Shown here one piece after another: positions 485-1,152 of a DNA stretch of 64,000 nt. The number at the start of each line of letters is the position of its first letter. The stretch's first letter is position 1. Location of the stretch: NCBI GenBank assembly GCA_964502355.1, contig CAZCWK010000005.1, positions 19,332-83,331 on the forward strand. Reading direction: 5' to 3'. This stretch comes from an uncultured Bacteroidales bacterium (GTDB taxonomy: Bacteria; Bacteroidota; Bacteroidia; Bacteroidales; UBA1402). The position numbers and the translations under genes were made by a program. A model generated the notes under the pieces. It searched no databases and was not told the DNA's origin. It saw only the letters and a list, made by a program, of their open reading frames with translations.

Positions 485-1045
485 ATGATTGAAGATATGA
501 CATTTAACAAGGTCAACTTCATTGAAGTTGACCTTGATTCTTATTATGCAGATTGTGAGTTTGTCAGTTGTGATTTTTCTGAACTGGCATTCGGGAAAAT
601 AGTTTTTGAACGTTGCATATTCAGGCAATGTAATCTTAGTTTGTGCAGGATGTCGGTTACAAGCTGGGTTGAAGTCAGCTTTATAGATAGTAAAATGACC
701 GGCATTGAGTTTACTAATTGCAATAATTTTACTTTGTCGGTTTCGTTCTTCAAATGTAATCTGCAATATTCTTTGTTTATCGGGAATAATCTTAAACGAG
801 CAAAATTTATTTCCTGCCAGTTACAAGGTTCTGATTTTACTGAATCTGACCTGAAAGAGGCTGTTTTTGAAGAAAGCGATCTTACGTCTGCTACCTTTCA
901 ATCTACTAATCTGGAAAAGGCAGATTTTTCCGGAGCTTATAACTACAACATAAATCCGGTTTACAATAAGATTAAAAATGCAAAATTCTCCAGAAGCGGT
1001 CTGGATGGATTGTTGAGTAATTTCGGGATTGATATTGTTGATTGA
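485..1045 (+). CDS. pentapeptide-repeat protein
   Basis: The 186-aa ORF is almost entirely tandem 5-residue repeats (CEFVSCDFSELAFGKIVFERCIFRQCNLSLCRM; SDLKEAVFEESDLTSATFQSTNLEKADFSGA). Confidence 0.8.
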   Translation: MIEDMTFNKVNFIEVDLDSYYADCEFVSCDFSELAFGKIVFERCIFRQCNLSLCRMSVTSWVEVSFIDSKMTGIEFTNCNNFTLSVSFFKCNLQYSLFIGNNLKRAKFISCQLQGSDFTESDLKEAVFEESDLTSATFQSTNLEKADFSGAYNYNINPVYNKIKNAKFSRSGLDGLLSNFGIDIVD

Positions 1046-1152
1046 AATCCGGTGCGCGCATTCCCCGCTTCTCTGCGGATGGGTTAGCGCAAAATGTTTT
1101 ATTCCTATACGGAATCAAAGATTCCTGGCTGCTTGCGGTGAGGAGATTCAAT
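1041..1152 (+). repeat. GC-rich intergenic repeat, full-length copy 1 (unclassified REP/MITE-like element)
   Basis: It aligns end to end, by eye, with the reverse complement of 52781-52893. Imperfect terminal inverted repeats are ATTGAAATCC and GGAGATTCAAT. Internal hairpin CCGC-ttctct-GCGG lies at 1065-1078. It overlaps the TGA stop of the pentapeptide gene. Confidence 0.55.

What the first reader, a model, noticed from the sequence alone, without database searches (positions are those of the whole stretch)
1041..1152. Dispersed GC-rich intergenic repeat family (about 110 nt) in 3' UTRs
In an AT-rich genome, several intergenic spacers contain conspicuously GC-rich segments that are related to each other:
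- full copies at 1041-1152 (+) and 52781-52893 (-)
- partial copies at 27196-27267 (+) and 37911-37956 (-)
- possible fragments at about 19024-19047 (GGGATACGGATACAAAGATTAC versus CTATACGGAATCAAAGATTCC) and about 45884-45896 (TTGAAATCCGGT)

Copy 1 has imperfect terminal inverted repeats (ATTGAAATCC / GGAGATTCAAT), and its first bases overlap the stop codon of the pentapeptide gene. Every copy lies just downstream of a plus-strand gene, in either orientation. This is REP/BIME-like or MITE-like behaviour. I do not recognise the element.
Basis: seen in the sequence. Interest (0 to 1): 0.6.

Follow-up and report, generated by a model that had tools for sequence, protein, structure and literature searches.

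The report
Gene-less IS200-type transposon remnants
The GC-rich intergenic repeats are real. They are about 105-base, gene-less derivatives of an IS200-type insertion sequence, a known kind of non-autonomous mobile DNA, and not a new RNA gene or a classical inverted-repeat MITE.

Summary
The two full copies are genuinely related: c1 at 1047-1151 (+) and c2 at 52784-52887 (-), 72% identity, E about 1e-15. More copies exist in a close Bacteroidales MAG, two other Bacteroidota, and Ca. Manganitrophus (Nitrospirota).

Each copy has two GC-rich hairpins in direct orientation. The hairpin core, CCCCGCTGCTTGCGGCGGGG, also sits at both ends of bona fide IS200-type insertion sequences that carry a Y1 transposase gene.

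The repeat has the IS200/IS605 end architecture:
- a conserved TGAA on the left flank, 16 nt before hairpin A
- a TCAA ending the element, starting 4 nt after hairpin B
- 4-nt guides (CATT, GATT) just 5' of each hairpin that pair with those sites by the IS608 rule, and that co-vary across related elements
- no target duplication and no coding capacity.

So it is a PATE-like non-autonomous IS200 derivative. It was presumably moved in trans as single-stranded DNA. No transposase gene is in the window.

- 37912-37954 is a one-hairpin deletion derivative (E 2e-7).
- 27196-27256 resembles a right-end/left-end junction (E 5e-5).
- The fragments at 19024 and 45884 are at chance level.
- The window's full copies have weakened hairpins and look like relics.

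This is a new member of a known kind and of modest interest.

The parts
1043..1046 (+). Left cleavage/target tetranucleotide (CL) TGAA of copy c1. It is flanking DNA, not part of the element. TGA (1043-1045) is the stop codon of the pentapeptide-repeat gene 485-1045.
   Evidence: Sequence; ORF; Pfam. TGAA lies at the same position in 6 of 7 full copies.
1047..1151 (+). Copy c1, 105 nt, full two-hairpin PATE-like element. Layout: 16-nt spacer ending in guide GL CATT (1059-1062); hairpin A 1063-1083; internal segment 1084-1119; guide GR GATT (1120-1123); hairpin B 1124-1143; AGAT; right cleavage site CR TCAA (1148-1151).
   Evidence: Covariance model 126 bits. Identical copy in the related MAG and in a Logan contig (L008, L006). 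Guide/cleavage pairing. The hairpins are weakened by mismatches: DNA fold z = -0.76.
52888..52891 (-). Left flank tetranucleotide TAAA of copy c2, in the position of CL. It is retained in related contigs that lack the element.
52784..52887 (-). Copy c2, 104-105 nt, a divergent and degenerate full copy. GL is CAAT (52875-52872); hairpin A is 52871-52852; GR is GAGT (52815-52812); hairpin B is 52811-52792; CR is TCCA(A), ending at 52784/52783. It lies between the ECF sigma factor gene and a small ORF followed by rpe. It is absent from three related contigs.
   Evidence: Covariance model 93 bits. 73-75% identity to the other copies. Presence/absence. DNA fold z = -0.41.
37912..37954 (-). One-hairpin mini derivative, 43 nt. 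It has the left-end spacer (TCCAGTTCACTCAAT), a single hairpin (CCCCGCTGCTTGCGGCGGTG) and the right-end tail (AACT+TCAA), preceded by TTAA (37955-37958). It lies between the convergent thrC-like gene and the PDH_N gene, right after an intrinsic terminator.
   Evidence: blastn with the left-flank + hairpin + right-tail consensus: 80% over 50 nt, E 2e-7. Aligned with left and right ends. Same intergenic spacing in all five related contigs retrieved with DNA.
27196..27265 (+). Probable decayed relative with a permuted order. A right-end-like hairpin (GCTGCTTTGCAGCGGGG, 27196-27213) + GAGGT + TTAA (27218-27221) is followed by a left-end-like spacer (TTCTGGTTAGCGCAATT, 27222-27238), a degenerate hairpin (27239-27258) and AAT + TTAA.
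   Evidence: blastn against the concatenated consensus right end + left end: 72% over 61 nt, E 5e-5. Left end alone: E 0.036. At noise level for the full-length model. Present in all related contigs.

Best explanation
The repeats are PATE-like elements: about 105-nt, gene-less derivatives of an IS200-type insertion sequence (IS200/IS605 family). Each keeps only the left end and the right end of such an element.

**Anatomy, on one 'top' strand**
- a left-flank target tetranucleotide (TGAA) that is not part of the element
- a 16-nt spacer ending in a 4-nt guide (CATT)
- subterminal hairpin A
- about 40 nt of internal sequence ending in a second guide (GATT)
- hairpin B, a direct repeat of A
- 4 nt, and then the right cleavage site TCAA.

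**Inferred mechanism (established for the family paradigm IS608, not shown here)**
- A Y1/HUH transposase (TnpA), encoded elsewhere, binds the two hairpins in single-stranded DNA.
- Each guide base-pairs with its cleavage tetranucleotide.
- The top strand is excised as a circle, and the donor is resealed with TGAA retained.
- The circle inserts 3' of another T(G/A)AA, without target duplication.

**State of the window's copies**
- The two full copies have mismatched hairpins. c2 also has an aberrant left site and an unusual right site.
- Two further sites are a one-hairpin deletion product and a scrambled remnant.
- In this genome they are most likely old, largely immobile relics.
- Any effect on neighbouring genes was not tested.
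For: **1. The family is real and goes beyond the window.**
- Extra full copies: L007, L008 and L009 (close Bacteroidales MAG); L010/L017 plus a divergent second copy (Bacteroidota bin211, 50% GC); L057 (JGI metagenome); L022-L024 (Ca. Manganitrophus).
- Sources. Pairwise identities are 58-90%.

**2. The hairpin sequence matches real IS200-type elements.**
- CCCCGCTGCTTGCGGCGGGG is identical in the Manganitrophus copy and nearly so in the Bacteroidota copies.
- The same hairpin core is seen on both sides of the Y1_Tnp (PF01797) genes in Ca. Megaera, Pseudanabaena, Acaryochloris, Kovacikia and a multi-copy metagenomic IS (P0087).
- In Pantoea, Edwardsiella and Citrobacter it is seen at the right end only.
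- Sources; alignments.

**3. The multi-copy IS P0087 fixes the boundaries empirically.**
- At 7 or more distinct insertion sites its flanks diverge just 5' of TTTAA and just 3' of TCAT(T).
- The spacing from target to hairpin is 16 nt, as in our element. No duplication is seen.

**4. The guide/cleavage-site rule holds.**
- The rule is taken from IS608: g1-c2, g2-c1 and g4-c4 pair (PMC5934647, PMC3201880).
- It holds at both ends of 6 of the 7 full copies tabulated. One of these, L009, has a G-T wobble at g2-c1. c2 fails it on the left.
- The pairs co-vary across relatives. Left: CATT/TGAA against AATT/TTAA. Right: GATT/TCAA against GATA/TCAT against AATA/TTAT.

**5. Hairpins A and B are direct repeats, not inverted.** 20-23 matches when aligned direct against 16-19 when inverted. 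Both fold as DNA in the intact copies; L017 has z = -3.6.

**6. There is no coding capacity and no TSD.**
- Copies differ by 1-nt indels.
- The flanks show no target-site duplication.

**7. c2 is polymorphic.**
- It is absent from three contigs that encode an identical sigma factor.
- Homology runs up to the predicted left cleavage point, TTAAA|TT.

**8. Neighbouring genes share no functional theme, and the element's orientation varies**.

**9. The class is already described.** PATE-like, protein-less IS200/IS605 derivatives are reported in PMC10055086, PMC7290912 and PMC3119063.
Against: - No cognate tnpA was found in the window or in any held DNA of these organisms (tblastn). The autonomous partner with matching ends (TGAA|TTCCGGTGCGCGCATT... 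/ ...GATT-hairpin-AGATTCAA) has not been identified.
- The only presence/absence polymorphism (c2) is not a clean empty site. The right junction is blurred by a further replacement of about 25-45 nt.
- c2 itself breaks the left guide/target rule (CAAT against TAAA).
- c1 and the sites at 27196 and 37912 show no polymorphism in any related contig retrieved, so recent mobility is not shown.
- In a species whose GNAT protein is 89% identical, a copy sits upstream of the orthologous gene while the surrounding intergenic DNA is barely alignable. This could mean selection on the element, and not only neutral decay.
- Copy number looks low. The collection scans required exact matches to three sequence blocks, so the census is only a lower bound (the L057 copy was missed for that reason).
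Confidence: 0.8

Rival explanations
1. A structured small RNA, either a trans-acting sRNA or a 3'-UTR stabiliser/processing element, whose multi-stem fold is what is conserved.
For: - The element is conserved across phyla, with stem-preserving changes. For example, hairpin B is CCTCGC/GCGAGG in Bacteroidota and CCCCGC/GCGGGG in Manganitrophus.
- Several copies start 0-20 nt after the stop codon of a co-oriented gene.
- In Salmonella, the IS200 5' region is known to yield regulatory RNAs (PMC5435999, listed).
- The copy near the GNAT gene is retained while the flanking DNA diverged.
Against: - No Rfam family matches, even at E up to 10.
- There is no conserved promoter or terminator. c1 starts inside the upstream gene's stop codon.
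- Orientation relative to neighbouring genes is inconsistent, and c2 is antisense to both neighbours.
- RNA folding z-scores are unremarkable: -1.6 and -1.2.
- The RNAalifold covariation term is unfavourable, and only 2 of 33 pairs show compensatory change.
- The features that co-vary best are the 4-nt guide/cleavage pairs, which matter for single-stranded DNA transposition and not for an RNA fold.
Confidence: 0.06
2. A REP/BIME-type repeat maintained by a domesticated RAYT (TnpA-REP) transposase rather than by an IS200-type transposase.
For: - REPs resemble IS200/IS605 subterminal hairpins and are handled by a Y1 enzyme (PMC3333891).
- The copies are intergenic and occur in either orientation.
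- Isolated single hairpins occur at 37912-37954 and 27196-27213.
Against: - The conserved 5' GTAG (or CGTC) tag is absent. The four bases 5' of the hairpin feet are CATT and GATT.
- The two hairpins are direct repeats, whereas a BIME pairs inverted REPs.
- The ends are asymmetric, exactly like IS left and right ends. The cleavage site is 16 nt upstream on one side and 4 nt downstream on the other.
- Only 2-4 copies lie in 64 kb, and only three copies in the related MAG matched the exact scan pattern. E. coli has hundreds of REPs.
- The hairpin matches multi-copy, target-specific IS elements.
Confidence: 0.08
3. A classical MITE: an internally deleted DDE-transposase IS, bounded by terminal inverted repeats and flanked by target-site duplications.
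For: c1 and most Bacteroidota copies begin with TTGAAT and end with ATTCAA, which reads as a 6-10 nt inverted repeat.
Against: - No direct duplication flanks any copy.
- The left 'arm' is retained in contigs that lack c2, so it is pre-existing flank.
- Related elements with CR = TCAT or TTAT have no inverted termini.
- The internal architecture matches IS200 ends.
Confidence: 0.03

Closest known systems
PATE / PATE-like elements: protein-less IS200/IS605 derivatives. Examples are Haloquadratum walsbyi (PMC3119063), Halanaerobium hydrogeniformans (a 271-nt 'ends-only' element, PMC7290912) and Geobacillus stearothermophilus (PMC10055086).
   Same: - Keeps only the palindrome-bearing left and right ends of an IS200/IS605-type element.
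- Has no ORF.
- Is presumed to be mobilised in trans by a TnpA encoded elsewhere.
- Is dispersed in intergenic DNA.
   Different: - It is much shorter (about 105 nt) than the described examples.
- It derives from a tnpA-only IS200-type element. It therefore carries no tnpB remnant and no omega-RNA scaffold, whereas many described PATEs do.
- It occurs in Bacteroidota and Nitrospirota.
- Its own guide/cleavage pairs are CATT/TGAA and GATT/TCAA.
- A further one-hairpin, 43-nt derivative exists.
IS200-type insertion sequences of the TnpA subfamily found here. Examples are Acaryochloris marina pREB3 (tnpA AM1_RS33020), Kovacikia, Pseudanabaena, Ca. Megaera and the multi-copy metagenomic IS encoding P0087.
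   Same: - The same subterminal hairpin sequence.
- The same spacing: 16-18 nt from target to left hairpin, and the right cleavage site 4-5 nt after the right hairpin (7 nt in Megaera).
- The Acaryochloris left end even shares TTGAA|T ... CATT with our element.
   Different: - Those elements carry an intact or frameshifted tnpA of about 147 aa. Ours has about 40 nt between the hairpins.
- Their right ends use GATA/TCAT or AATA/TTAT. Ours uses GATT/TCAA.
- Our left hairpin is a complete CCCCGC...GCGGGG stem, like a right-end hairpin. The IS left ends have an interrupted stem.
IS608 (Helicobacter pylori), the mechanistic paradigm of the family.
   Same: - Subterminal imperfect palindromes on the top strand.
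- A left cleavage/target tetranucleotide outside the element, and a right one (also TCAA) inside it.
- 4-nt guides 5' of each hairpin foot that pair g1-c2, g2-c1 and g4-c4.
- No duplication.
   Different: - The spacings differ: 19 and 10 nt in IS608, against 16 and 4 nt here.
- The hairpin sequences are unrelated.
- IS608 carries tnpA and tnpB.
REP/BIME and REPIN elements with RAYT (TnpA-REP).
   Same: Short intergenic palindromes recognised by a Y1/HUH enzyme as single-stranded DNA. Both are non-autonomous.
   Different: REPs carry a GTAG/CGTC tag, pair in inverted orientation, reach hundreds of copies, and are cut with low sequence specificity (CT). None of these features is seen here.

Membership tests
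IS200/IS605-family non-autonomous derivative (PATE-like) | Subterminal imperfect palindromes near both ends, on the same strand (direct orientation), rather than terminal inverted repeats. | tested here: met
   Hairpins A and B align better direct (20-23 matches) than inverted (16-19). Both fold as DNA in intact copies. Alignments.
IS200/IS605-family non-autonomous derivative (PATE-like) | The ends are homologous to those of a bona fide element that encodes a Y1 (PF01797) transposase. | tested here: met
   An identical 20-nt hairpin and the same spacing flank tnpA genes. The same holds for a multi-copy IS seen at 7 or more sites. Alignments A4 and A5.
IS200/IS605-family non-autonomous derivative (PATE-like) | A conserved target tetra/pentanucleotide lies on the left flank only, and there is no target-site duplication. 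| tested here: met
   TGAA is present in 6 of 7 full copies and TAAA in c2. The right flanks are unrelated to the left flanks.
IS200/IS605-family non-autonomous derivative (PATE-like) | 4-nt guides 5' of each hairpin foot are complementary to the left and right cleavage sites (the IS608 rule). | tested here: met
   CATT/TGAA and GATT/TCAA satisfy g1-c2, g2-c1 and g4-c4. The pairs co-vary in related elements. The exceptions are c2's left end and the Megaera left end (rule).
IS200/IS605-family non-autonomous derivative (PATE-like) | No transposase or other ORF inside the element. | tested here: met
   The element is 104-117 nt long, copies differ by 1-nt indels, and tblastn with TnpA is negative.
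IS200/IS605-family non-autonomous derivative (PATE-like) | Mobility: occupied and empty sites, with the target retained and the flanks rejoined precisely. | tested here: inconclusive
   - c2 is absent from L001-L003, and homology ends at the predicted left cleavage point. The right junction carries an extra replacement.
- c1 and the sites at 27196 and 37912 show no polymorphism in any related contig retrieved.
- The GNAT-locus copy is retained in a related species.
IS200/IS605-family non-autonomous derivative (PATE-like) | A cognate TnpA with matching ends is present in the same genome. | not testable with these tools
   - Only 64 kb plus short loci of this lineage are held, and none encodes a Y1 transposase.
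- The TnpA subfamily has more than 7,900 members and the hits carry no taxonomy.
IS200/IS605-family non-autonomous derivative (PATE-like) | The top strand lies preferentially on the lagging-strand template. | tested here: inconclusive
   Cumulative GC skew rises across the whole window. c1 and the remnant at 27196 are on +, while c2 and the remnant at 37912 are on -. There are too few copies to judge.
REP/BIME (RAYT-associated) | A conserved GTAG (or CGTC) tetranucleotide 5' of the palindrome foot. | tested here: not met
   The four bases 5' of the feet are CATT and GATT (also CAAT and GAGT). Definition taken from PMC3333891.
REP/BIME (RAYT-associated) | [quoted passage not shown] | tested here: not met
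   The hairpins are in direct orientation. There are 2 full copies and 2 remnants in 64 kb, and 3 copies matching the exact scan pattern in the related MAG.
TIR-type MITE | Terminal inverted repeats belonging to the element, flanked by a target-site duplication. | tested here: not met
   There is no duplication. The left 'arm' is present in contigs that lack c2. Relatives lack inverted termini.
Known structured RNA family (Rfam 15) | A match to a curated covariance model. | tested here: not met
   The window gives no hit at gathering thresholds. Around c1 and c2, searches at E up to 10 give only spurious weak hits.

The most novel reading that the evidence does not exclude
The element may be more than decaying selfish DNA. 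On this reading, a 105-nt gene-less single-strand transposon with its own re-programmed guide/target pair (CATT/TGAA) has spread between phyla (Bacteroidota and Nitrospirota). It is then retained by selection at some loci, for example as a 3'-end RNA or DNA structure placed directly after stop codons. That would explain why the GNAT-locus copy outlasts its flanking DNA.
Probability: 0.1. Interest if true: 0.5.

Novelty: new member of a known kind. Interest (0 to 1): 0.3.

Why it matters
- **Annotation.** These GC-rich islands in an AT-rich Bacteroidota genome could easily be mistaken for sRNAs, riboswitches or TIR-MITEs. Recognising them as IS200-type end-only elements prevents that, and may explain a MAG contig that ends about 30 nt past the c1 ortholog (not tested).
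- **Distribution.** They record past IS200-family activity in lineages where such elements are little described: an uncultured Bacteroidales lineage, another Bacteroidota, and Ca. Manganitrophus. They also point to an IS subgroup that has not been sampled.
- **Mechanism.** The set of relatives gives a natural covariation series for the guide/cleavage-site code of single-strand transposition. On the left it runs CATT/TGAA and AATT/TTAA. On the right it runs GATT/TCAA, GATA/TCAT and AATA/TTAT. That code is of interest for programmable DNA insertion.
- **What it does not do.** It does not open a new biological question.

Tried and rejected
- **Rfam.** The whole window at gathering thresholds, and the c1 and c2 regions at E up to 10, gave nothing meaningful.
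- **Cis-regulatory leader.** Rejected, because the neighbouring genes share no theme and orientation varies. Neighbours include pectate lyase, Omp85/HlyD, GNAT/HipA, malQ/metH, ECF sigma/rpe and TMEM165/TPR.
- **Independent sRNA gene.** No conserved promoter or terminator, and folding z-scores are weak.
- **Small peptide.** An open frame exists in c1, but indels between copies break it.
- **Collection scans.** A three-block pattern was scanned against genome and metagenome contigs. It returned 4 and 1 true loci, the rest being chance hits of the expected number. The exact-block requirement makes this an undercount.
- **Viral contigs.** Left-end and right-end patterns gave only chance hits in high-GC DNA, or nothing.
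- **Plasmid BLAST with c2.** Nothing.
- **tnpA in held DNA.** None found.
- **Autonomous partner.** A search through TnpA homologues returned 7,908 hits, mostly cyanobacterial where named, so it was impractical to follow.
- **Clean empty sites.**
  - The sites at 27196 and 37912 are unchanged in all related contigs retrieved.
  - The exact proteins next to c1 and next to 37912 are mostly not on record.
  - The nearest pentapeptide homologues are at most 61% identical, too distant to use.
  - The GNAT locus in a related species still carries a copy.
- **Replication-strand bias.** Uninformative with four sites.
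Full report
**Observation**

The window is 36% GC. It encodes Bacteroidota-type proteins, including a pectate lyase with a T9SS sorting domain.

The two claimed full copies are clearly related.
- blastn gives 72.3% identity over 119 nt, E = 9e-16.
- A covariance model built from five family members and run over the whole window without filters finds only these two, at 126 and 93 bits. 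Everything else scores 14 bits or less.
- Rfam has no match.

**More copies elsewhere**

An exact three-block pattern (TCCGGTGCG...CCTATAC...GAGATTC) was scanned over 185,579 species genomes. It returned nine loci. Four are real.
- Three lie in MAG GCA_964500535.1 ('uncultured Bacteroidales bacterium').
- One lies in 'Bacteroidota bacterium bin211'.

The other five are chance hits, about the number expected. That MAG is a close relative of the window's organism. It encodes the identical ECF sigma factor and an identical copy of c1.

The metagenome scan added only the bin211 locus again, on a 50%-GC contig. The model then found a divergent second copy on the bin211 contig, at 20 bits.

BLAST against plasmid records found a full-length copy in three Ca. 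Manganitrophus (Nitrospirota) replicons, about 76% identical and directly after a TMEM165/GDT1 gene. A copy in a JGI metagenome contig (L057) turned up through a flanking protein. The pattern scan had missed it because of one substitution, so the census is a lower bound. Pairwise identities run from 58% to 90%.

**What it is not**

Neighbouring genes have no common function, and the element occurs in every orientation relative to them. That argues against a cis-regulatory leader.
- There is no conserved promoter or terminator. c1 begins inside the stop codon of the upstream gene.
- RNA folding is unremarkable, and the alignment fold shows little compensatory change.
- No copy is flanked by a direct duplication.

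**The lead**

Each copy contains two similar GC-rich hairpins in the same orientation. Using the Manganitrophus copy as a BLAST query gave weak partial hits to its second hairpin in Ca. Megaera and Citrobacter plasmids.

Reading those loci showed that the hairpin CCCCGCTGCTTGCGGCGGGG lies immediately 3' of an IS200-type transposase gene. In Megaera that gene is frameshifted, and a related hairpin lies 5' of it (Pfam PF01797).

A tblastn search with that TnpA found a subfamily at 70% identity or more in cyanobacterial, Rickettsiales and enterobacterial plasmids. Six loci were retrieved. All six carry the same hairpin core at the right end. The four with an intact left end carry it there too.

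One member (protein P0087) was retrieved at seven or more distinct insertion sites.
- Its flanks diverge just 5' of a conserved TTTAA on the left.
- They diverge just 3' of TCAT(T) on the right.
- The target lies 16 nt before the left hairpin.
- There is no duplication.

**Architecture test**

For the family paradigm IS608, the literature states the following (PMC3201880, PMC5934647).
- The left cleavage site is also the target, and it lies outside the element, 5' of the left hairpin.
- The right cleavage site lies inside the element, 3' of the right hairpin.
- Each site is recognised by base pairing with a 4-nt guide immediately 5' of the hairpin foot. The examples are TTAC/AAAG and TCAA/GAAT, with A+16:T-3 and A+17:T-4.
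- This amounts to pairs g1-c2, g2-c1 and g4-c4.

Applied to our element, the left guide CATT predicts TGAA, which is found 16 nt upstream. The right guide GATT predicts TCAA, which starts 4 nt after hairpin B and ends the repeat. The single difference between the two guides (C against G) matches the single difference between the two sites (G against C).

Among the bona fide relatives the pairs co-vary.

| End | Guide / cleavage site | Seen in |
|---|---|---|
| Left | CATT / TGAA | our element, Acaryochloris |
| Left | AATT / TTAA | Kovacikia, Pseudanabaena, P0087 |
| Right | GATT / TCAA | our element |
| Right | GATA / TCAT | Citrobacter, Kovacikia, Acaryochloris, P0087 |
| Right | AATA / TTAT | Edwardsiella, Pantoea, Pseudanabaena, Megaera |

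The exceptions are the left ends of c2 and of the Megaera IS (alignments). Relatives with other tetranucleotides have no such repeat.

**Coordinates in the window**

c1:
- target TGAA at 1043-1046 (TGA is the pentapeptide gene's stop codon)
- element at 1047-1151
- guides at 1059-1062 and 1120-1123
- hairpins at 1063-1083 and 1124-1143
- TCAA at 1148-1151.

c2, on the minus strand:
- flank TAAA at 52891-52888
- element at 52887-52784.

**The partial copies**

The site at 37912-37954 (-) has the left-end spacer, one hairpin and the right-end tail ending in TCAA. A consensus built that way matches it at 80% over 50 nt, E = 2e-7. This is what a deletion between the two direct-repeat hairpins would leave.

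The site at 27196-27265 (+) resembles a right end followed directly by a left end: 72% over 61 nt, E = 5e-5. I treat it as a probable scrambled remnant, because the query was designed after inspection.

The fragments near 19024 and 45884 stay at chance level. Read by eye, each looks like an end-to-end remnant without hairpins.

**Mobility**

Three contigs encode an identical sigma factor but lack c2. Homology with the window runs up to TTAAA|TT, the predicted left cleavage point. The right junction is obscured by a further replacement of 25-45 nt.

c1 and the two remnants show no polymorphism in any related contig retrieved. The GNAT-locus copy persists in a species whose GNAT protein is 89% identical, although the surrounding intergenic DNA is rearranged.

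Folded as DNA, the L017 and Manganitrophus copies form both hairpins; only L017 stands out from shuffled controls (z = -3.6, against -1.7 for Manganitrophus). c1 and c2 do not stand out, at z = -0.8 and -0.4. No Y1 transposase is encoded in the window or in any held DNA of these organisms.

**Conclusion**

The repeats are PATE-like, transposase-less derivatives of an IS200-type insertion sequence. This class is already described.

What is shown:
- family membership by end homology
- the end architecture
- guide/cleavage covariation
- absence of a target duplication.

What is inferred: trans-mobilisation by a Y1 transposase through a single-stranded circular intermediate. That mechanism is established for IS608.

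In this genome the copies look old and probably immobile. REP/BIME, TIR-MITE and structured-RNA readings were each tested, and each fails at least one defining feature.

This is a new member of a known kind and of modest interest. Its main value is correct annotation, plus a natural covariation series for the family's DNA guide code.

Noticed in passing
window 53145-53168: A terminator-like palindrome upstream of rpe reads GGGCTGTCA-AAAAT-GACAGCC in the window and in L004. In L001-L003 the loop is TTTTT. This looks like a hairpin-loop inversion polymorphism between close strains.
   Followed up: no
window 52962-53123 (+): A conserved 51-53 aa ORF (MNQTSTLKKKPSGKMKRFYAKPSESTIDFLMKFAREYVSDDVSAKKNLLFN) lies between the ECF sigma factor gene and rpe. 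It is called as a gene in related contigs and has no Pfam hit on record there. It might be a small partner of the sigma factor.
   Followed up: no
L010 116-235 (+) and 3013-3131 (-): In Bacteroidota bin211, a divergent family member and a canonical one lie in inverted orientation on either side of a 4-alpha-glucanotransferase (GH77) gene. They sit 12 nt before its start and about 80 nt after its stop.
   Followed up: partly
L057 about 9715-9900: Immediately 3' of the element there are three to four copies of a motif of about 20 nt (ACCGTCATTCTGTTACAAAA), spaced about 35-40 nt apart. The right flank of the L007 copy begins with a similar TTACCGT.
   Followed up: no
window 45878-45922 and 19024-19060: Two sequences read like family ends joined without the GC hairpins: TTTGAA|ATCCGGTATAACCGGAAAAGGCTTCAA|C and CGGATACAAAGATTACTTTTCAAT. 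Their scores are at chance level, E of 1 or more.
   Followed up: partly
L025, L026, L036-L041, L047-L056: One IS200-type TnpA subfamily (members 70% identical or more) carries the same 20-nt hairpin in cyanobacteria, Rickettsiales (Ca. Megaera) and Enterobacterales plasmids. The protein search found 7,908 proteins at E of 1e-30 or better. Some right-end hairpins carry an extra T, like the extra-helical T of IS608.
   Followed up: partly
L048 against L052 and L054: Copies of the P0087 IS share the same right flank but have different left flanks. This suggests recombination between IS copies, or chimeric metagenome assembly.
   Followed up: no
L008 (MAG contig CAZCPI010000429.1, 1609 nt): The contig ends about 30 nt past the c1 orthologue, which would fit an assembly break at a repeat.
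   Followed up: no
window 1214-3115, 26310-27173, 27355-32241: The window holds several pectin-related genes: a pectate lyase with a T9SS sorting domain, a DUF4861 protein, and a 1628-aa pectinesterase-domain protein. This suggests a pectin-utilisation region.
   Followed up: no
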